A stretch of 36,391 nucleotides of DNA, from the IMG/VR virus record IMGVR_UViG_2778261056_000002. One strand, 5' to 3'. Positions 27,717 through 36,391 of this stretch are shown one piece after another. This DNA comes from a virus (taxonomy: Duplodnaviria; Heunggongvirae; Uroviricota; Caudoviricetes). The notes under the pieces are model-generated. The model was not told the origin of the DNA and searched no databases. It saw only the letters and a program-made list of their open reading frames with translations. Both the position numbers and the translations under genes were made by a program. Numbering within the stretch: the first letter of the stretch is position 1; every line of letters begins with the position of its first letter.

Positions 27717-27994
27717 GGTCGTCTGAACCTCAGCATCCTGAATTCTGAATTACGCAACTTCCGGCACGGCCTTCAGGAACGTGGGGAGTTCGTTCTGGCT
27801 GCGGCGCTGGATGAACATCTGCGGTCGATTGAGAACTGGTCGCAAGACGATTAAAACAAACGATTGTCAGATTAATTTCGCGGGCGAATTTTTTTTGCTT
27901 AGCGATATTCATAAATAAACTTCCTCAGATTCAGGCGTAAGCCAGCCCCGGCGGGTTTACGCCTGTTTTAAATAACAATTAAAAACAAATTAAA

Positions 27995-28186
27995 TTAATG
28001 CGGTGCTTTCAGTGTTTCGACTTTTACGAAATAAGGCTCGACATTAATTTCAACCACACAACCACATTTAAAATCTCTGGCAGGTGAAACGGTTTTCACC
28101 ACACGACCACCACGCAACGCCGGATGTGCAGTGTGCATGAAGCGAGTCCCTACCGGATACTGCTTATTAAAGTTCTTCGCATTCAT
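27995..28186 (-). CDS. Hypothetical protein
   Basis: 63 aa ORF. Confidence 0.4.
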   Translation of the reverse strand: MNAKNFNKQYPVGTRFMHTAHPALRGGRVVKTVSPARDFKCGCVVEINVEPYFVKVETLKAPH

Positions 28187-28400
28187 GGCGTGGCTTCCAT
28201 CCTTTCAGGTGAGCATTAGCACAGAACTCGGCCCGGTGTTCCGCCCAGATGCGGCGCAGGGTGCTACACGGGCTTTGTGCTGCCTTACGCCACAGCTTTT
28301 CAGCCTCGGCATAATCGCCGCGTTGTTCTGCTCTGGACGCGCCTAGCGAATACGCCGCGCAACTATTTCCGGCTCTGTACTCTTTGATATCCTGATGCAT
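28167..28400 (-). CDS. Small two-helix protein, ANR-like (candidate anti-activator)
   Basis: Track ORF 28167..28490; internal ATG directly after the upstream stop gives 77 aa with YSLGASRAEQRGDYAEAEKLWRKAAQ and WAEHRAEFC motifs. Confidence 0.45.
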   Translation of the reverse strand: MHQDIKEYRAGNSCAAYSLGASRAEQRGDYAEAEKLWRKAAQSPCSTLRRIWAEHRAEFCANAHLKGWKPRHECEEL

Positions 28401-28401
28401 G

Positions 28402-29046
28402 TTAAACCCCTGCAATATCAAGCGGGATTGCGCGATATTCGTCAGAATCGCCGACGCGCTCATACACACGAATATAGCTCTTGCTGCCAATCACCTGGAC
28501 GGCTTCACCAATCAGCGTCATGGCGTTATTCCAGCGTTCGTCCTCAATCTCGAGGCGACGCAGGGCCAGAACGCGACCGGTGTTGATGTTGCCTTCCTTG
28601 TCCGTGCTGAATGCCTCGCTGATGATGGCTTTGATTTCAGGGCGTGCACCTTCCGTCCAGTCAGCCAGGCAATCATCAATCAGCGACTTCGCGGTCTGAA
28701 TGCGTTCATCAAACGCGATACGGTCCTGCATGGCGCGCTGAATCTTGTAACGCCCGTCAAAGCTGTAAAGCGTGATATTCCCTTTTTTACCGCCTTTCAC
28801 AGCGCCGTATTTCTCCGCCGACAGGTCAATAAATGCCTGGATATCACCAAACGCACGCAGTTTCAGTTCCCGCAGTGAGGCGGAGGCGGCAATCACCATC
28901 TCCACAAGCTCACCGACCAACTGCTCGCGGTCGCGGTCAATATCTTTGATAAGGCTTTCAGGTGTCATTACGCCACGGGCATCCACCCAGTAACCTTCAG
29001 GCGCTTGAGTTTTCGTGTATTGCTTAACTTTATTTTCAGTCGTCAT
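28402..29046 (-). CDS. Conserved Mu-like early protein of unknown function (DUF3164-like)
   Basis: 214 aa ORF; family assignment from recollection only. Confidence 0.45.
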   Translation of the reverse strand: MTTENKVKQYTKTQAPEGYWVDARGVMTPESLIKDIDRDREQLVGELVEMVIAASASLRELKLRAFGDIQAFIDLSAEKYGAVKGGKKGNITLYSFDGRYKIQRAMQDRIAFDERIQTAKSLIDDCLADWTEGARPEIKAIISEAFSTDKEGNINTGRVLALRRLEIEDERWNNAMTLIGEAVQVIGSKSYIRVYERVGDSDEYRAIPLDIAGV

Positions 29047-29075: not shown

Positions 29076-29291
29076 TTAATGTGTGTTATGCGCGCAGGGT
29101 TCCACGCCAACAGAAAAAGTATCAATGCCATCAAATTCTTTACTCAGGGTTTGATTTATTACCTCCCATATCCGCTGCCTTACGCCAACCTCTTTATCTG
29201 TAAATCCTCTGTTACTAAGAAATCCCTTATTCCTGACATGAACTCTGCCGTTTTCATCGGTATAGATGAGTACTTCTAACTTAACCGCCAT
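29076..29291 (-). CDS. Hypothetical protein
   Basis: 71 aa ORF. Confidence 0.4.
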   Translation of the reverse strand: MAVKLEVLIYTDENGRVHVRNKGFLSNRGFTDKEVGVRQRIWEVINQTLSKEFDGIDTFSVGVEPCAHNTH

Positions 29292-29303: not shown

Positions 29304-29528
29304 TCATTGCCATACGACGGTGCAGCCGTCGATACAGGACGTTTTCACCACGCGGCGCAGGCCGCTGAATGTCTGGACGATTTCCGTTACCGGCCATACA
29401 GGACCACCCACGGGCGGGCAGGCATAAACCACAGGTAAACGGTGATGCTGTCCCGTTACACGACCGCCGGTGGTGTGAATGGCCACACGGGCACGGGAAC
29501 GGACGGCGTTAATGGTCTGCTTGTCCAT
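29304..29528 (-). CDS. Small protein immediately after B (position of Mu kil)
   Basis: Track ORF 29304..29543; second ATG has GGAG 9 nt upstream and gives 74 aa; no sequence-level identification. Confidence 0.4.
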   Translation of the reverse strand: MDKQTINAVRSRARVAIHTTGGRVTGQHHRLPVVYACPPVGGPVWPVTEIVQTFSGLRRVVKTSCIDGCTVVWQ

Positions 29529-29542
29529 CGCCTTATTCTCCA

Positions 29543-30436
29543 TCAGTGAATTAACATTTCTGCGAATTTATCAATGGCCTGCACACTGACCGGCGCATCG
29601 CTGATATCACAAATCCGGTACACACCACGCGCCAGCTTGAACAGACGGCGGGCATTACCCAGCGAACGTGTATAAAGCGCCTCGCTGATTTCCGGTTCTG
29701 CTGCTTCCGGCATCAGCCCGGTGGCTATCTGGTTAAAATCTTCCTGCGACAGCGTATCGCCCAGGTTAAGCGCCAGCGCTACACGGCTGTATAACTGGGC
29801 GAACTCACCGCGACGTCCCTTGAGGTTAATCAGAAGGCGTGGCATACCCGCCAGGACAATCCCGATACCCGCTTTGTCATGCAGACGGCGCAGAACCTCC
29901 AGTGCGCGATAGGGGAGCAGTTCAGCCTCGTCCACCATCAGCAGGCGACCGGAATCACGCAGTTCTCGCACACATGCATCAATCAGTTCGTGGATATTGC
30001 CGCGAACTTTTACCCCCAGCTGGCGGCACAGCTCCTCAAGCAGTGTTCTGGCTGTATAGCCCGGGTCGGCTTCAATCAGGACCGCATCCCGGTTTCTGGC
30101 GGCGTATTCACGCAGAATCATTGTTTTGCCAAGACCTGCCGCGCCATACAGTACGCAGATTTCACATTCCAGATGAGCATAGGCCAACACCTCCAGTCCT
30201 TTGGCAGCCATACCGGTGGCAACAAATTTCGCTTTAATACGGCGGCTGTTTTCCTTTTCCCGCTCACGGGTCACAAAGGCAGAAATGCGTTCTTCAATAT
30301 CAGCCATATCGCCCTGATATTTACCCTGTAAATACTGGTTGATAACGGCGCTGCTACGACCAATAGCACGGGCGACGTGGGTCTGCGTATAGCCGCGACG
30401 GGCCATTACGTCATTTAATTGCGTAATTAAACTCAT
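29543..30436 (-). CDS. Transposition protein B (AAA+ ATPase with N-terminal HTH)
   Basis: 297 aa; N-terminal HTH (RRGYTQTHVARAIGRSSAVINQY) and Walker A GAAGLGKT; directly downstream of the transposase. Confidence 0.85.
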   Translation of the reverse strand: MSLITQLNDVMARRGYTQTHVARAIGRSSAVINQYLQGKYQGDMADIEERISAFVTREREKENSRRIKAKFVATGMAAKGLEVLAYAHLECEICVLYGAAGLGKTMILREYAARNRDAVLIEADPGYTARTLLEELCRQLGVKVRGNIHELIDACVRELRDSGRLLMVDEAELLPYRALEVLRRLHDKAGIGIVLAGMPRLLINLKGRRGEFAQLYSRVALALNLGDTLSQEDFNQIATGLMPEAAEPEISEALYTRSLGNARRLFKLARGVYRICDISDAPVSVQAIDKFAEMLIH

Positions 30437-30454: not shown

Positions 30455-32497
30455 TTAACGGTTGTTTGTGCCGTTTTTCTTTAAATTGCGTTCGCGTTCA
30501 GATGCGAATAAATAAAGTTCTTCTTTTTCCTTTTTCTCCGGGCGTTCCAGTCCATATCCCAGATTAAAGTCAGGCTTCTGCGTAATAGCCGGGGTAAGCT
30601 CGCGTTTAGCCTCTTCGATTTTCTGCGTGGCCCGTGCAATGCGGCCCCTGACGCGTTTCTCCAGTTTTTGTTCGATAACTGGTTTAGCGAAGGCATCAAC
30701 CTTGTTACCGTTCCAGATGGCATCGCAGATATAAGAGCCATCAGCCCGCCGGACAATGACACTGTTTGCATCATGAATATCGTAACTGACCCTGACTTCA
30801 TTCCCGTGCTCTGCGGCCAGCTCATACGAGTAATAAATATTGTTGAATAACTGAATTTCCCCGCGAAATGTTTTGCGCGTCACTTCCGGCCTGAACATTT
30901 CATGCAGTTCTTCCGGCGACAGGAAATCAATTTCAACATTCTGCTCTTTTATCAGTTTCCGGCGATACGCTGCCGGGCTGTAATGCTCGCCATCCTCTTT
31001 GCGAGGAAGGCTGCTGTGTGGCCGGTTGTTATAGCGTCTGACTTCCAGTTCTATGGCTGCCATCAGTTGCTCAAAGGTGGGGACTTCATCCCTTGCCTTA
31101 ACCTGCCGCTTTGTCAGCTCTTTCCCTTTGTGGGTGGCCTTAATGGCTGACTGCATAATCCGTTGCTGCATCATTACGGTTTCCTTGTCTGCTCCCTTTG
31201 AGCAGTACGTCTGGAAACTCAGGGCCACATCCCGGGGAATTTCCTTGTTAAGCCTTTCAATCACCCCGCGCCCCTGTGGGTTACCTGGTATCCCCGTGTG
31301 ATGCTCCACACCCAGCCGGGGCAAAATCCCGGTAATATCAGCGTCAAGCACCCGGTTTTTTTCGCCGCCCCCGTTATCGGAGTAATAAATCAGCGGTATC
31401 CCGTGCTGTGACATGCCATGACGCAGCGCATCAGCAACGGCTATCACGTTCTCCGACAGGGACAGTGACCAGCCCACAACAAAGCGCTGCCCCGCATCCA
31501 TAACCAGCGTCACCTCTGGCCGGAAAATATTGCCGGTCAGTGGGTTAAACGCGGTCATTTTCATACAGTGACCATCCCCGACCCATACCGCATTAACCGG
31601 TAATGTGCTCCAGTCGCGCCGCACAAAGGGATTGAGCGAACGCCAGGCTGAACCGGTGGAGCGGAAACGCTCTTTAACAATCACCGGGACGCTGCTTAAC
31701 ACCCGTCTGACTGCGTGAACTGAAGGCAGTGCTGCCAGCATTCCCGCATCATTCGCGTGTTTTTCATGCCACCAGGCTGAAAACTCGCGATACGCGTATT
31801 CAACGGTCGGGCGCTTCCATGAGCGATAGAACATAAAGAAATCGCTCAACCACCAGACCTGCTCCCACGGTGTTCCCTTATGATGACCGGGAGCCAGTAA
31901 CGCCAGTAACTGATTGGCATCACCGCGCGCCATCACCCAGCTGGAGTACCAGCTATCCAGGCTGCCGGTGCTGACACCGGTTCGCTTTCCCTGACGTGCA
32001 TTTGCAGTATTAGCTGCTTCGATAATGCGGTCAGGTAACGCCCCCATGCGCACACCATCAACGATGTGCTTTAACGCGGCCTTCCTGGTCATTCCGGCGT
32101 ATTCACGCAGTTTATGCACTTCAGTAGCCAGCAATATCCGCGCATCAGCGATGGCCTTTTGCTTGTCAGTCAGTGCCTGGACTTCGCGTAATGCCAGTTC
32201 CGGGCATTTGACCATCACCTCCAGTTCATCGCGAACGGCGACGTTTTTAACTGCCTTCTGCTCAACCACGGCGGGCAGTTGCGTATCTTCCAGGACCTGA
32301 TGGGTCAGGCGCTTACGTAAAACTTTCTGCGCTTCAGCGGGCAGGCAGTCGATGTGATACTCGAATGCTTTGGTGCCTTCACGCTTGCGCTTCCATTCCG
32401 GGTGCGTCTCTGTGATCCGATTGAGCGTCCAGCGCACCCCCTGAACTGTACCGGGCAAACCAGGAAGACCGGCCAGCTCATTGGCTGAATAAAACAT
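30455..32497 (-). CDS. DDE transposase A (Mu A-like)
   Basis: 680 aa; DDE catalytic core; ATG overlaps the Ner-like stop (TAATG). Confidence 0.9.
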   Translation of the reverse strand: MFYSANELAGLPGLPGTVQGVRWTLNRITETHPEWKRKREGTKAFEYHIDCLPAEAQKVLRKRLTHQVLEDTQLPAVVEQKAVKNVAVRDELEVMVKCPELALREVQALTDKQKAIADARILLATEVHKLREYAGMTRKAALKHIVDGVRMGALPDRIIEAANTANARQGKRTGVSTGSLDSWYSSWVMARGDANQLLALLAPGHHKGTPWEQVWWLSDFFMFYRSWKRPTVEYAYREFSAWWHEKHANDAGMLAALPSVHAVRRVLSSVPVIVKERFRSTGSAWRSLNPFVRRDWSTLPVNAVWVGDGHCMKMTAFNPLTGNIFRPEVTLVMDAGQRFVVGWSLSLSENVIAVADALRHGMSQHGIPLIYYSDNGGGEKNRVLDADITGILPRLGVEHHTGIPGNPQGRGVIERLNKEIPRDVALSFQTYCSKGADKETVMMQQRIMQSAIKATHKGKELTKRQVKARDEVPTFEQLMAAIELEVRRYNNRPHSSLPRKEDGEHYSPAAYRRKLIKEQNVEIDFLSPEELHEMFRPEVTRKTFRGEIQLFNNIYYSYELAAEHGNEVRVSYDIHDANSVIVRRADGSYICDAIWNGNKVDAFAKPVIEQKLEKRVRGRIARATQKIEEAKRELTPAITQKPDFNLGYGLERPEKKEKEELYLFASERERNLKKNGTNNR

Positions 32498-32733
32498 TAC
32501 GCCGCCTTACTGGCATACCGGCTTGGCCAGATCTCCGCAGGTTCCACACCAATAGCATCGGCTATGATGCGTTCATATTTAGGGCATGAGCGATACAGTG
32601 CATTTTTTAAAGAGTCTTTTTTTAGACCAGCGCGTTCAGAAAGTTCACGCAATGTAAAACCTTTGGTGTGCACAGCGGCAACGATGTACTCGCGGTGCCA
32701 GTCTTTGTTCATTACTTCATTTCTAACCATCAT
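32497..32733 (-). CDS. ner: Ner-like DNA-binding regulator
   Basis: Track ORF 32497..32826; the Ner-like part begins at MMVRN/MNKDWH; ...RSCPKYERIIADAIGVEPAEIWPSRY matches the Ner/Nlp family signature. Confidence 0.8.
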   Translation of the reverse strand: MMVRNEVMNKDWHREYIVAAVHTKGFTLRELSERAGLKKDSLKNALYRSCPKYERIIADAIGVEPAEIWPSRYASKAA

Positions 32734-32826
32734 TAGGTTACCCTTAAAAGTTATCCGTGCGGATAACACCGCCGTGTTATCCCTTCGGATACAAGTATTG
32801 ATCCATATGTAGCCCATGTAAAGCAA

Positions 32827-32915
32827 AAATAGCCCTTTCTTTGTATTTTCTTTTTGATTTTGGTCTTTATATGGTTTTTACAATTAAAATCAACTAGTTA
32901 TAGAGGAAAGAAAAA
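32827..32915. promoter_or_regulatory. Divergent early control region (repressor and early-operon promoters with operators)
   Basis: AT-rich 89 bp gap between divergent Ner-like and repressor genes; AGAGGAAAG RBS before the repressor ATG. Confidence 0.5.
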
Positions 32916-33563
32916 ATGACCAGAAATGATGATGCTTTTTCTTTTGTCGACCGGGGAAAAGAAAGTTTCAGAGAGCGTTTAGTAAAGCTGATAGGTAACC
33001 GCAGTGTCAGAACTGCTGCGAGTGATTGGGGAATTCCCCCTTCAACCTTAAACAACTACATTCATAAAGGAACTGAGCCTTCTTTTAAAATAGCTTGCCT
33101 TATCTCAGATAAAGAGCAGGTGAGCTTAAATTGGCTCGCTTACGGTAAGGAACCCAACGCCAAAGAAGGTTCTCTATCAAATCAAACAGCGCAGCCTTCT
33201 CCCGATATTACAAACGAGCTAGTTAACGAGTTATTGAAAAGAGCGTCCACAGAAGTTAAGGAGCAACTGATAAGTGCAATATGCGATATGGGCATTAAAG
33301 GAATCTTGGAACGCCTACAGCAACCCACCAGGCAAGCTACGCAGGCCGACAGCGACCTGGACGAACTGGAGAATGCCATCAGAAGACTAAACATCAGGGA
33401 ATCGCTTAAAGACACTATTTGCATGGCATTGGCTGGTAATGAAGAAATTGACAAAGAGATTTTGCGTCGTATCGAATCTCGTATACGAGCTGGGTCGCCG
33501 AGTGGTCATACCGTTGCCACGCCGGAGCAAGAAACGAAGCCTGTAAGCAAAAAATCAGCATGA
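32916..33563 (+). CDS. Prophage repressor (HTH, Mu c position)
   Basis: 215 aa; N-terminal HTH (VRTAASDWGIPPSTLNNYIHKGTEPSFKIACLISDKEQVSLNWLAYGK); only phage gene on the plus strand, transcribed toward the prophage end. Confidence 0.65.
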   Translation: MTRNDDAFSFVDRGKESFRERLVKLIGNRSVRTAASDWGIPPSTLNNYIHKGTEPSFKIACLISDKEQVSLNWLAYGKEPNAKEGSLSNQTAQPSPDITNELVNELLKRASTEVKEQLISAICDMGIKGILERLQQPTRQATQADSDLDELENAIRRLNIRESLKDTICMALAGNEEIDKEILRRIESRIRAGSPSGHTVATPEQETKPVSKKSA

Positions 33564-33866: not shown

Positions 33867-33874
33867 ACCCCACA

Positions 33875-34775
33875 CGTGCGTGAAAACGGCCATGTGGCGA
33901 AGGTCGCGGTACTGGGACTGGCTCAGGCGCGTGACCCGCAGCTGGCGGCATGGATTGAAGAAAACGTCACCTTCCCGTGCACCATGGTTGACCGCATCGT
34001 TCCGGCGGCGACGCCAGAAACCTTGCAGGAAATTGCTGACCAGCTGGGTGTTTACGACCCGTGCGCCATTGCCTGCGAACCGTTCCGTCAGTGGGTGATT
34101 GAAGATAACTTCGTTAACGGTCGCCCGGACTGGGATAAAGTGGGCGCACAGTTCGTTGCAGACGTTGTGCCGTTCGAAATGATGAAGCTGCGTATGCTGA
34201 ACGGCAGCCACTCTTTCCTGGCATACCTCGGTTACCTCGGCGGCTATGAAACCATTGCCGACACCATGACTAACCCGGATTATCGCAAAGCGGCCTTCTC
34301 CTTGATGATGCAGGAACAAGCGCCAACGCTGTCGATGCCGGAAGGTACGGACCTGAACGCCTATGCGACGCTGCTGATCGAGCGTTTCAGCAACCCGTCT
34401 CTGCGTCACCGTACCTGGCAGATTGCGATGGACGGCAGCCAGAAGTTACCGCAGCGTCTGCTGGACCCGGTGCGTCTGCACCTGCAAAACGGCGGCAGCT
34501 GGCGTCACCTGGCGCTGGGCGTGGCTGGCTGGATGCGTTACACCCAGGGCGTGGATGAGCAGGGTAATGCCATTGACGTGGTCGACCCGATGCTGGCGGA
34601 GTTCCAGAAGGTCAACGCGCAGTATCAGGGCGCAGACCGCGTGAAAGCGCTGCTGGGCCTGAGCGGTATTTTTGCCGATGATCTGCCGCAGAATGCCGAC
34701 TTTGTTGGCGCAGTGACGGCGGCATATCAGCAGCTGTGCGAACGCGGTGCGCGCGAGTGTGTGGCTGCGCTGTAA
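33875..34775 (+). pseudogene. uxuB: uxuB (D-mannonate oxidoreductase) 3' fragment, truncated by the prophage insertion
   Basis: Translation from 33876 (VRENGHVAKVAVLGLAQARDPQLAAWIEEN...LCERGARECVAAL) recognised as the C-terminal part of UxuB; upstream residues in the track ORF are phage-end DNA. Confidence 0.85.
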
Positions 34776-34799
34776 CTAACTGATTACCCTACAGACTTA

Positions 34800-34844
34800 C
34801 TGGTCAATCAAACTGATATTTGGTTGACCAGTTTTCGTTTTTTT
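34800..34844 (+). terminator. uxuB rho-independent terminator
   Basis: CTGGTCAA...TTGACCAG inverted repeat followed by TTTTCGTTTTTTT. Confidence 0.55.
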
Positions 34845-34918
34845 GCCCACCTATACGTGCCAACTTCCAGTGCTAATGGTATAGTTTGAGATTAACGGGG
34901 GCCGTAAAATTGCCCGTT

Positions 34919-34952
34919 GTAGGCCGGATAAGGCGTTCACGCCGCATCCGGC
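34919..34952. repeat. REP (repetitive extragenic palindrome) element
   Basis: GTAGGCCGGATAAGGCGTTCACGCCGCATCCGGC matches the classic enterobacterial REP sequence. Confidence 0.6.
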
Positions 34953-34989
34953 AAAAATTTGATTAACCGCACCTAACGGACACAACACC

Positions 34990-35763
34990 ATGAAATCTGC
35001 CACCTCTGCGCAAAGACCTTACCAGGAAGTCGGGGCGATGATCCGCGATCTGATCATAAAGACGCCGTACAATCCTGGCGAACGGCTGCCGCCGGAGCGT
35101 GAAATTGCAGAAATGCTTGATGTCACGCGGACGGTGGTACGTGAAGCGCTGATCATGCTGGAGATCAAAGGGCTGGTGGAAGTACGCCGGGGTGCCGGTA
35201 TCTATGTTCTTGATAACTCAGGCAGCCAGAACACAGACAGTCCGGATGCCAACGTCTGCAACGATGCCGGTCCTTTTGAGCTGTTACAGGCGCGGCAGTT
35301 ATTGGAGAGCAACATCGCCGAGTTTGCCGCTTTGCAGGCTACCCGCGAAGATATCGTCAAAATGCGTCAGGCATTGCAACTGGAAGAGCGTGAACTGGCT
35401 TCCAGTGCGCCGGGCAGCAGCGAAAGCGGTGACATGCAGTTCCATCTCGCTATTGCCGAAGCAACGCATAACAGCATGCTGGTGGAGCTGTTCCGTCAGT
35501 CCTGGCAGTGGCGGGAAAACAATCCAATGTGGATCCAGTTGCACAGCCATCTGGATGACAGCCTGTATCGCAAAGAGTGGTTGGGCGATCACAAACAGAT
35601 CCTCGCCGCGTTAATCAAAAAAGATGCCCGAGCGGCGAAGCTGGCAATGTGGCAGCATCTGGAAAACGTTAAGCAACGTCTGCTGGAATTCTCGAACGTT
35701 GACGATATTTATTTTGATGGCTATCTGTTTGATTCATGGCCGCTGGATAAAGTCGACGCCTGA
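34990..35763 (+). CDS. uxuR: UxuR, GntR-family repressor of hexuronate utilisation
   Basis: 257 aa; N-terminal GntR-type HTH; sequence recognised as UxuR; follows uxuB as in the uxuAB-uxuR locus. Confidence 0.9.
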   Translation: MKSATSAQRPYQEVGAMIRDLIIKTPYNPGERLPPEREIAEMLDVTRTVVREALIMLEIKGLVEVRRGAGIYVLDNSGSQNTDSPDANVCNDAGPFELLQARQLLESNIAEFAALQATREDIVKMRQALQLEERELASSAPGSSESGDMQFHLAIAEATHNSMLVELFRQSWQWRENNPMWIQLHSHLDDSLYRKEWLGDHKQILAALIKKDARAAKLAMWQHLENVKQRLLEFSNVDDIYFDGYLFDSWPLDKVDA

Positions 35764-35775
35764 CTTATTATAATA

Positions 35776-35808
35776 AGCGCAAGGGTAAACGTTCCTTGCG
35801 CTTTCTTA
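35776..35808 (+). terminator. uxuR terminator hairpin (may act bidirectionally)
   Basis: AGCGCAAGG-loop-CCTTGCGCT followed by TTCTT. Confidence 0.5.
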
Positions 35809-35903
35809 AATTAAGAAGTCGCAATGAGTATTACTTTGTAAATTGCAGGGTATTGTTTAGCTATCTGTATAACCTGAATGTTAGTACTCATTCTTCTCAG
35901 TGG

Positions 35904-36350
35904 CTATTTACCAATATAATTCCATTCACCATTTTTTAATTCAAACAGTTCTGGAAGAGATGACGGTTGCAGAGTCATACGTTTGAGTGGTGCATTTTCA
36001 TCACCCGGGATAACTTTATATCCCATTTTTGCATGGATCTCCGCGGTACCGGGATAGACTTCTATACCAATTATTGGGTCATTACCCAACTCAATATTAG
36101 CATTAAGTAATGCGGCAAGGGCGAATCCGGAAGAATTTGCCACCCCTGAGACAGTCATTATCTGATCAATATAGATATCAATCCTTGGCTGCTCATTGGT
36201 CCATCTTTTTGCCTGAGAAGCTGGAAGGGTTGAAATATATCCTATCGTGGTTCCGGCGTAACCTGGAACATTGCAACCAGGGCCTAATGTTATTTCATGA
36301 ACTGTATAGTTCTCAACAGGATAGGAAGGGCTCTTCGGTGATGCTGCCAA
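35904..36350 (-). CDS. Hypothetical protein in AT-rich host-flank DNA, convergent with uxuR
   Basis: 148 aa ORF; track start is a TTG just after an in-frame stop, so the true start is unresolved. Confidence 0.4.
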   Translation of the reverse strand: MAASPKSPSYPVENYTVHEITLGPGCNVPGYAGTTIGYISTLPASQAKRWTNEQPRIDIYIDQIMTVSGVANSSGFALAALLNANIELGNDPIIGIEVYPGTAEIHAKMGYKVIPGDENAPLKRMTLQPSSLPELFELKNGEWNYIGK

Positions 36351-36391
36351 CTTACTGATTTAGTGTATGATGGTGTTTTTGAGGTGCTCCA

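What the first reader, a model, noticed from the sequence alone, without database searches (positions are those of the whole stretch)
28167..28400. ANR-like small anti-activator candidate in the early operon
The 77 aa product has the two-helix pattern and motifs (..GDYAEAEKLWRKAA.., ..WAEHRAEFC..) that I associate with the ANR family of small proteins that antagonise AraC-type activators and H-NS. A phage-borne copy expressed from the early operon could rewire host virulence or xenogeneic silencing regulators.
Basis: inference. Interest (0 to 1): 0.5.

Follow-up and report, generated by a model that had tools for sequence, protein, structure and literature searches.

The report
Known rnr gene on Mu-like prophage

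Summary
The ORF is real: window 28167-28400, minus strand, 77 aa, with both quoted motifs. It scores 57.3 bits against NCBIfam NF033650 'ANR family transcriptional regulator' (cut-off 32). It carries every conserved residue of the published ANR signature. AlphaFold2 models it as three helices.

It is 95% identical (73/77) to the ANR gene at NC_011601.1 2,721,409-2,721,642 in EPEC E2348/69. Those are exactly the coordinates of the rnr locus deleted by Rodriguez-Valverde et al. 2023. That study showed Rnr binds H-NS and Ler in a two-hybrid assay, represses the LEE/T3SS, and substitutes for Aar. RefSeq already names the identical protein 'ANR family transcriptional regulator'.

The context is a Mu-like transposable prophage, with gene order c | ner-A-B-kil-orf71-DUF3164-rnr-orf63-…-Mor. 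This order is kept in 26 of 26 related viral contigs and in relatives with only about 36% ANR identity. The same prophage sits at three different chromosomal sites.

The modest addition is that ANR proteins are widely early genes of temperate phages. The Rnr papers do not discuss this: the 2023 paper never mentions phage and the 2014 paper notes it once. What Rnr does for the phage is inference only.

The parts
28167..28400 (-). rnr allele: 77-aa ANR-family protein (the finding)
   Evidence: Translation. NF033650 at 57.3 bits. 95% identical to E2348/69 Rnr. Annotated 'ANR family transcriptional regulator', WP_029392806.1, in a 100% identical genome. dN/dS 0.02-0.30. Three-helix model, pLDDT 79.8.
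28407..28411 (-). Shine-Dalgarno-like AGGGG, 6 nt before the ATG
   Evidence: Read directly from the sequence.
27995..28186 (-). orf63 (phrog_5591, unknown function), overlaps the rnr 3' end by 20 nt; constant downstream neighbour in enterobacterial Mu-like prophages
   Evidence: Natural ANR+orf63 fusion ORFs P0030, P0037, P0097 and P0102.
28402..29046 (-). DUF3164 gene immediately upstream of rnr
   Evidence: Pfam PF11363, E = 2.9e-81. Conserved upstream neighbour.
29076..29291 (-). orf71 (phrog_7438, unknown function)
29304..29528 (-). Kil-like early gene
   Evidence: phrog_2679 'Kil protein', E = 8.6e-35.
29543..30436 (-). MuB-like AAA+ transposition ATPase
   Evidence: Pfam AAA_22/TniB. 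PGAP 'AAA family ATPase'.
30455..32497 (-). MuA-like transposase
   Evidence: PGAP 'Mu transposase C-terminal domain-containing protein'. Homologues carry HTH_Tnp_Mu_1 and Mu-transpos_C.
32497..32733 (-). Ner-like first gene of the early operon
   Evidence: Pfam HTH_35, E = 9.3e-26.
32794..32822 (-). Candidate early promoter (Pe-like; TTTACA-17-AATACT) in an AT-rich divergent control region
   Evidence: Consensus scan only. The region 32700-32999 is 28-39% GC.
32916..33563 (+). CI/c-type repressor, divergent from the early operon
   Evidence: Pfam Phage_CI_repr. PGAP HTH protein.
33874..33878 (.). Left end of the prophage, where homology to the same prophage in other strains stops; beyond it lies the host uxuB-uxuR-yjiC region
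   Evidence: blastn against L001 and L002 ends at 33875 and 33878. Flank identified.

Best explanation
The ORF is an allele of rnr, the clade-2 ANR-family gene carried by a Mu-like transposable prophage of Enterobacteriaceae. It encodes an 8.9-kDa three-helix protein with no recognisable DNA-binding domain. Like other ANR proteins, it works by protein-protein contact: it binds host transcription regulators and prevents them from oligomerising on DNA. For Rnr, the partners shown directly are the H-NS-family proteins H-NS and Ler. AraC/XylS activators are shown as direct partners for Aar, Cnr-2 and the Vibrio ANR, and are inferred for Rnr from cross-complementation. The gene is the eighth gene of the phage early operon (ner-A-B-kil-orf71-DUF3164-rnr-orf63…). 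It is tightly packed with its neighbours, and I found no convincing promoter of its own, so it is most likely transcribed from the early promoter. On that reading (inferred), expression would be strong during lytic development and leaky in a lysogen. Leaky expression would be enough to dampen H-NS/Ler- and AraC-controlled host regulons such as LEE/T3SS and fimbriae. The benefit to the phage is also inferred. The most likely benefit is neutralising H-NS-type silencing, for example at the AT-rich early control region; in phage Mu the early promoter is repressed by H-NS.
For: Identity and family:
- NF033650 scores 57.3 bits against a cut-off of 32.
- Signature residues A21, E25, A33, W37, A40, W52, R56 and C60 match the published ANR signature.
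- Direct BLASTP to Aar gives 38% identity over 53 aa, E = 5e-7.
- The protein is 73/77 identical to the E2348/69 protein at NC_011601.1 2721409-2721642. These are the coordinates given for the rnr deletion in PMC10148876.

Function shown for the orthologue:
- Two-hybrid binding to H-NS and Ler.
- Repression of LEE/T3SS and roughly 500 differentially expressed genes.
- Rnr shuts off AafA in EAEC.
- The C. rodentium rnr mutant over-expresses regA and colonises better.

Mechanism of the family:
- Aar binds the AggR linker and blocks its dimerisation and DNA binding.
- Aar binds H-NS.

Structure:
- Three helices, with pLDDT above 90 in the core.
- No HTH or other DNA-binding Pfam hit.

Operon context:
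-.
- The only promoter-like site in the right place is upstream of ner.
- Synteny holds in 26 of 26 IMG/VR loci and in distant relatives.
- Mu lysogens make low levels of early-operon product.
- H-NS represses Mu Pe and IHF relieves it.
- The c-ner region here is 28-39% GC.
Against: - Nothing was measured for this allele itself; four residues differ from the tested EPEC protein.
- Direct binding of Rnr to an AraC-type protein is not reported in the papers I read. Only cross-complementation and transcript changes are reported.
- Transcription from Pe is inferred from gene packing and a weak consensus scan. An internal promoter cannot be excluded. The published phenotype of a lysogen mutant requires expression while the prophage repressor is present.
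- The prophage as a whole is not AT-rich (47-62% GC), so self-protection from H-NS would concern only local regions.
- H-NS had no effect on the Mu prophage domain structure.
Confidence: 0.9

Rival explanations
1. Its main selected role is the one in the family name: an anti-activator with a cognate AraC/XylS partner (PerA, RegA, GadX and the like). H-NS binding would be secondary.
For: The C. rodentium rnr mutant has 10-12-fold more regA. Rnr from C. rodentium and from EPEC shuts off AggR-dependent AafA. Several AraC-family genes change in the EPEC rnr mutant. Other ANRs bind AraC proteins directly.
Against: There is no AraC-family gene in the 16 kb annotated around the gene. The prophage transposes to unrelated sites: uxuB, near trg, and eutC. 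The exact protein is on at least 1000 contigs across Enterobacteriaceae, and the listed E. coli carriers include chicken, pork and human isolates. A strain-specific virulence activator is therefore an unlikely universal partner. Direct Rnr-AraC binding is not shown in the papers read, whereas H-NS and Ler binding is.
Confidence: 0.3
2. It is a phage-development factor working with its fixed neighbours (DUF3164 upstream, orf63 downstream) in transposition or replication. On this view the host-regulator effects are side effects of over-expression.
For: The DUF3164-ANR-orf63 order is strict even where ANR identity falls to about 36%. The coding regions overlap. Four independent fused ANR+orf63 ORFs exist.
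Against: ANR genes occur without orf63 in Pasteurellaceae Mu-like phages, in PolA-type prophages and on plasmids. Without DUF3164 they occur in SuMu, the PolA-type prophages and plasmids. A chromosomal rnr deletion, not only over-expression, changes LEE expression. Rnr alone on a plasmid is active in a foreign host.
Confidence: 0.15
3. It behaves like PerC/Pch, small prophage- or plasmid-borne proteins that activate ler, because the ANR core is homologous to the N-terminal half of PerC.
For: hhalign of the ANR profile against EPEC PerC gives probability 89.9%, E = 1.7e-6. Some ANR members pass Pfam's PerC threshold.
Against: The window protein itself gives no PerC hit. The orthologue represses ler and the LEE rather than activating them.
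Confidence: 0.03
4. It is a chance ORF or mis-annotation.
For: It is short (77 aa) and has no Pfam family.
Against: NCBIfam and PHROG matches, dN/dS of 0.02-0.30, a ribosome-binding site and tight operon packing, and an experimentally verified orthologue.
Confidence: 0.01

Closest known systems
Rnr (RegA-negative regulator): E2348C_2635 of EPEC E2348/69 and ROD_02851 of Citrobacter rodentium (Santiago 2014; Rodriguez-Valverde 2023)
   Same: Same gene. It has 95% amino-acid identity and the same length to E2348C_2635. It sits at the same position between DUF3164 and orf63 in the same Mu-like prophage type. Its mass of 8.88 kDa falls within the 8.5-9.05 kDa reported for this clade.
   Different: Four substitutions: S13R and three in the C-terminal tail. 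The host strain and prophage insertion site differ (uxuB here). I could not retrieve the C. rodentium locus; only the paper's statement that it is 'phage-encoded' is available.
Aar (AggR-activated regulator) of EAEC 042, the ANR archetype
   Same: Same family model, same signature residues and the same three-helix prediction. The two are functionally interchangeable with Rnr in both directions.
   Different: Only about 27% identity overall. Aar is 63-66 aa, lies on a virulence plasmid near aggR, and is activated by AggR. The window gene is in a phage early operon with no AraC partner nearby.
ANR genes of Pasteurellaceae Mu-like phages (Mannheimia phage vB_MhM_3927AP2 gp09, Haemophilus phage SuMu_9)
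   Same: ANR_neg_reg matches of 45.5 and 66.4 bits. They lie in the early region a few genes downstream of the A and B transposition genes.
   Different: About 40% identity over the core only. The downstream neighbour is not orf63-like.
PerC/Pch family (Pfam PF06069)
   Same: The N-terminal ~50 residues of PerC align to the ANR core, with shared E, G-Y, A, W, R and FC positions. Both are small and carried on mobile elements, and both act on LEE expression.
   Different: PerC is longer (89 aa) and activates ler. The window protein does not reach any PerC score. PerC is below the ANR cut-off at 18.2 bits against 32.
T7 gp5.5 and other phage H-NS antagonists (T4 Arn, LUZ24 gp4)
   Same: These are functional analogues: small early phage proteins that bind H-NS-family silencers.
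   Different: I found no similarity. This is an analogy of role, not of family.

Membership tests
ANR (AraC negative regulator) family | Match to the curated family model NCBIfam NF033650 above its cut-off | tested here: met
   57.3 bits against a cut-off of 32, E = 1e-15, covering 50 of 54 profile positions.
ANR family | Published signature residues A10, E14, A22, W26, A29, W43 and R47, plus the conserved Cys (Santiago 2016) | tested here: met
   A21, E25, A33, W37, A40, W52, R56 and C60 are present, with a loop 2 aa shorter. The same columns are invariant or nearly so in alignments of 30 and 54 members, and in the alignment with Aar.
ANR family | Small size (<10 kDa) and three predicted alpha-helices | tested here: met
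   8.88 kDa. The AF2 model has helices at 5-27, 30-42 and 47-66, mean pLDDT 79.8.
ANR family | No DNA-binding domain of its own | tested here: met
   Only sub-threshold TPR hits in Pfam. The closest folds are MIT/TPR-like three-helix bundles, none significant. DNA-binding activity itself was not tested.
ANR family | Binds H-NS-family proteins | not testable with these tools
   Shown by two-hybrid for the 95% identical EPEC Rnr with H-NS and Ler.
ANR family | Binds or down-regulates AraC/XylS activators | not testable with these tools
   Rnr represses AggR-dependent AafA and regA. Direct binding is shown only for Aar, Cnr-2 and the Vibrio ANR.
ANR family | Encoded close to a cognate AraC-family gene (typical of the Aar/Cnr clade; not a strict criterion) | tested here: not met
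   No AraC-family gene in the 16 kb annotated around the identical locus. The neighbours are Mu-like phage genes.
Rnr orthologue group (ANR clade 2) | High identity to E2348C_2635 and the same locus | tested here: met
   73/77 identical. The CDS coordinates equal the published rnr coordinates. The flanking genes are the same.
Mu-like transposable prophage early operon | Divergent repressor; then ner, the MuA transposase, the MuB ATPase and kil on one strand; Mor further downstream; variable insertion sites | tested here: met
   Three different insertion sites are seen.
PerC/Pch family (PF06069) | Match to the Pfam PerC model | tested here: not met
   No PerC hit at E <= 1 for the window protein. 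Only a profile-level relation between the two families is seen.

The most novel reading that the evidence does not exclude
The ANR family may be, at root, an early-gene family of temperate phages. I found ANR genes in Mu-like transposable phages of Enterobacterales and Pasteurellaceae, and in a separate group of integrase/PolA-type prophages. Weak sub-threshold matches (E >= 0.01) also point to Vibrio siphoviruses. On this reading the selected function is phage-centric: disabling H-NS-type silencers and other host regulators during early development. The 'antivirulence regulator' phenotypes of Rnr would then be lysogenic-conversion side effects of leaky early transcription. Aar and Cnr on virulence plasmids would be domesticated offshoots, and PerC/Pch a diverged branch of the same superfamily.
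Probability: 0.4. Interest if true: 0.45.

Novelty: already known. Interest (0 to 1): 0.2.

Why it matters
For this finding itself it matters little. The gene is named, annotated in RefSeq, and functionally characterised in EPEC and C. rodentium.

The wider point is worth a short follow-up. The published work treats Rnr as a bacterial virulence regulator, and the 2023 paper never mentions that it lies inside the early operon of a transposable prophage. A 2025 paper states that the distribution of ANR genes on mobile elements, and their benefit to those elements, is an open question.

The synteny data here show that rnr is a conserved Mu-like phage early gene, and that another ANR clade sits in unrelated prophages. 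This reframes how its expression should be studied: prophage repressor, Pe, induction. It also suggests ANR proteins belong with phage counter-silencing factors such as T7 gp5.5.

Tried and rejected
- Phage genome collection (INPHARED): megablast of 4 kb around the gene and tblastn at E <= 1e-5 gave nothing. Only at E <= 1 did weak core matches to Mu-like Pasteurellaceae phages and Vibrio phages appear. Two of these were confirmed as ANR by NCBIfam.
- Pfam has no ANR family; only sub-threshold TPR hits were seen.
- No ANR structure is in the PDB by sequence. Foldseek of the model gave no significant match (best E = 0.35, to MIT/TPR-like bundles).
I therefore could not retrieve C. rodentium ROD_02851 or obtain an unbiased species census.
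- I tested whether orf63 is a universal ANR partner. It is not: there is no homologue after ANR in SuMu, 3927AP2 or the PolA-type prophages.
- I looked for an internal promoter or terminator around rnr. Only weak consensus matches turned up, fewer promoter-like sites than in shuffled sequence.
- I considered that the whole prophage might be AT-rich and hence an H-NS target. It is not (47-62% GC); only the c-ner control region is.
- I planned an AF2 run on a natural ANR+orf63 fusion (P0030).

Full report
**1. The observation**

Window 28400->28167 on the minus strand is an ATG-initiated ORF of 77 codons. Its product is MHQDIKEYRAGNSCAAYSLGASRAEQRGDYAEAEKLWRKAAQSPCSTLRRIWAEHRAEFCANAHLKGWKPRHECEEL. 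The protein is 8.88 kDa with pI 8.4.

An AGGGG Shine-Dalgarno-like site lies 6 nt before the ATG. The ATG lies one base after the stop of the upstream gene, and the 3' end overlaps the next ORF by 20 nt. Pairwise dN/dS against eleven homologous loci is 0.02-0.30, so this is a translated gene under purifying selection.

**2. What it is**

- The protein scores 57.3 bits (E = 1e-15) against NCBIfam NF033650 'ANR family transcriptional regulator', whose curated cut-off is 32 bits.
- Pfam has no model for it and gives only sub-threshold TPR hits.
- PHROG 2227, a phage protein family of unknown function, matches over its full length (E = 2.4e-27).
- Santiago et al. 2016 defined an ANR signature with conserved A10, E14, A22, W26, A29, W43 and R47 plus a Cys. 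These correspond to A21, E25, A33, W37, A40, W52, R56 and C60 here, with a loop two residues shorter.
- The same columns are invariant or nearly so in my alignments of 30 close and 54 diverse homologues, and in a direct alignment with Aar.
- All 54 diverse members hit NF033650.
- BLASTP against Aar of EAEC 042 gives 38% identity over 53 residues (E = 5e-7).

AlphaFold2 with a 30-sequence alignment gives three helices (5-27, 30-42, 47-66). Mean pLDDT is 79.8, and above 90 in the core. There is no solved ANR structure. By sequence the PDB offers only designed TPR proteins at E >= 0.016. Foldseek gives no significant match, the nearest being MIT/TPR-like three-helix bundles.

**3. It is rnr**

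The 4 kb around the gene is 100% identical to two chicken E. coli genomes and 96% identical to EPEC E2348/69. In all of them PGAP names the CDS 'ANR family transcriptional regulator'. The exact protein is a MULTISPECIES RefSeq entry seen on at least 1000 contigs.

In E2348/69 the CDS is at NC_011601.1 2,721,409-2,721,642. Rodriguez-Valverde et al. 2023 give 'the rnr locus (2,721,409-2,721,642, GenBank FM180568.1) … E2348C_2635' as the gene they deleted. The window protein is 73/77 identical to it.

For that orthologue the paper reports:
- two-hybrid binding to H-NS and Ler;
- repression of the whole LEE/T3SS and about 500 differentially expressed genes;
- reduced adherence when over-expressed;
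- interchangeability with Aar.

The C. rodentium orthologue represses regA and limits colonisation, and it shuts off AafA in EAEC. For the family, Aar binds the AggR linker and blocks its dimerisation and DNA binding, and Aar also binds H-NS. It is also already published.

**4. Context**

The window is a Mu-like transposable prophage. Genes run on the minus strand from a divergent CI-type repressor (32916-33563, +):

| Gene | Evidence |
|---|---|
| ner-like | HTH_35 |
| MuA transposase | PGAP annotation |
| MuB-like ATPase | AAA_22/TniB |
| kil-like | phrog_2679 |
| orf71 | phrog_7438 |
| DUF3164 | PF11363 |
| rnr | NF033650 |
| orf63 | phrog_5591 |
| orf60 | no family |
| DUF2786/DUF7168 | Pfam |
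| … gp16/GemA family | PGAP annotation |
| Mor, then lysis genes | PGAP annotation |

Homology to the same prophage in other strains stops at about 33875. Beyond that lies host uxuB-uxuR-yjiC. The same prophage lies next to trg in GPEC349-628 and in eutC in E2348/69, as expected for a transposing phage.

The only promoter-like site in a sensible place is upstream of ner, in a stretch of 28-39% GC. I found no convincing promoter or terminator next to rnr. Transcription of rnr from the early promoter is therefore the likeliest reading, but it is inferred. In Mu itself, lysogens make low levels of early-operon product from Pe and a second promoter. That would explain how a lysogen's rnr deletion has a phenotype.

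**5. How general is the phage context?**

All 26 IMG/VR loci that encode a relative (47-100% identity) keep MuA and MuB (or just MuB, or just MuA, in two loci) upstream of ANR-orf63. DUF3164 lies between them in 22 of the 26. This holds even where MuA identity falls to 24-48%.

The same order is seen for:
- a metagenomic relative with about 36% ANR identity;
- a Plesiomonas genome, which lacks orf63;
- Xenorhabdus nematophila.

Isolated Mu-like phages of Pasteurellaceae carry ANR genes in the same early region: Mannheimia phage 3927AP2 gp09 and Haemophilus phage SuMu_9.

A second, large ANR clade of 70-75 aa occurs in Salmonella and Klebsiella and is named in Citrobacter, Enterobacter and others. 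In the four members checked it sits just downstream of a family-A DNA polymerase in unrelated prophages. Two of these loci also show an integrase. In one case the ANR is fused to an HNH domain.

Other members lie beside chaperone-usher fimbrial genes, as Aar and Cnr do. The EAEC 042 plasmid pAA has a second ANR next to finO.

The 2014 paper mentions in one sentence that the C. rodentium gene lies in a 'predicted phage-encoded region'. The 2023 paper does not contain the word phage. A 2025 paper calls the distribution of ANR genes on mobile elements an open question.

**6. Mechanism: shown versus inferred**

Shown for the orthologue or the family:
- binding to H-NS and Ler;
- loss of DNA binding by the bound regulator (Aar with AggR, and Aar with H-NS);
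- repression of LEE and AAF.

Shown here:
- family membership and orthology;
- three-helix model;
- operon position and conservation.

Inferred:
- transcription from Pe;
- leaky expression in lysogens;
- a benefit to the phage.

The most plausible benefit is counter-silencing of H-NS. H-NS represses the Mu early promoter unless IHF intervenes, and other phages (T7 gp5.5, T4 Arn, LUZ24 gp4) encode early H-NS antagonists. Against a general self-protection role, the prophage as a whole is not AT-rich, and H-NS did not affect Mu prophage domain structure.

A universal host protein such as H-NS is a more likely primary target than a strain-specific AraC activator. The prophage moves between sites and strains, and no AraC gene accompanies it.

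**7. Side observations**

- orf63 is a constant, overlapping downstream neighbour in the enterobacterial Mu-like group. It is occasionally fused to ANR (P0030, P0037, P0097, P0102). It is absent after ANR in the other phage groups, so it is not an obligatory partner.
- EPEC PerC aligns to the ANR profile (hhalign probability 89.9%, E = 1.7e-6). Some ANR members pass Pfam's PerC threshold. ANR and PerC/Pch therefore look like branches of one superfamily, although they have opposite effects on ler.

**8. Verdict**

The novelty rating is 'already known': a named gene, a curated family model, a RefSeq annotation and published functional work on a 95% identical allele at the same locus. Interest is low. 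A modest residual lead remains: the phage-centric role of ANR proteins and the ANR-PerC relationship.

Noticed in passing
L039:18487-18753 (PerC of EPEC pMAR2) versus alignment A3; P0273, P0222, P0192 and SuMu_9: The N-terminal ~50 residues of PerC align to the ANR profile (hhalign probability 89.9%, E = 1.7e-6). ANR member P0273 passes Pfam's PerC gathering score (26.6 against 22.6), and others come close. ANR repressors and PerC/Pch activators of the LEE appear to be one superfamily.
   Followed up: partly
window 27995-28186 (-): orf63 (phrog_5591, no known function) overlaps the rnr 3' end by 20 nt. It follows ANR in every enterobacterial Mu-like locus examined except Plesiomonas L042, and it is more conserved than ANR (76-81% where ANR is about 50%). 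Fused ANR+orf63 ORFs exist (P0030, P0037, P0097, P0102). It is absent after ANR in Pasteurellaceae Mu-like phages and in PolA-type prophages.
   Followed up: partly
L029, L030, L031, L032, L035, L041: A second ANR clade (70-75 aa; Salmonella, Klebsiella and others) lies just after a family-A DNA polymerase in prophages with DUF2800/PDDEXK, Enc34-type ssDNA-binding and SNF2 genes. An integrase is also seen in three of these loci. In L041 the ANR domain is fused to an HNH_3 domain.
   Followed up: partly
L033:46187-46399 (-), plasmid pAA of EAEC 042: pAA carries a second ANR-family CDS (70 aa, 33.1 bits, just above cut-off) next to finO/traX, in addition to aar.
   Followed up: no
L036:615-878 and L040:1111-1362: Divergent ANR members lie beside chaperone-usher fimbrial genes in Cedecea and in a metagenomic contig. 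This echoes the Aar/Cnr fimbrial context.
   Followed up: no
window 33874-36391: The prophage left end abuts host uxuB, uxuR and yjiC, and the prophage appears to interrupt uxuB. The same prophage is next to trg in GPEC349-628 and inside eutC in E2348/69, consistent with transposition.
   Followed up: partly
window 27913-27994: The intergenic stretch after orf63 holds a 9-bp-stem hairpin (CAGGCGTAA…TTACGCCTG). It is followed by TTTT only on the plus strand, so it is not an obvious terminator for the early operon. E2348/69 has an extra plus-strand CDS in the corresponding region.
   Followed up: no
search of 1.84 billion representative proteins: Besides about a hundred small ANR-like proteins, the Rnr profile hits many long multi-repeat proteins at profile positions ~21-41. 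Helices 1-2 of ANR therefore carry a TPR-like motif.
   Followed up: no
protein cluster holding the window protein: The 90%-identity cluster that contains Rnr also contains 214-aa DUF3164 proteins and has one as its representative. This is probably a clustering artefact from read-through or fused gene calls across the 1-nt gap between the two genes.
   Followed up: no
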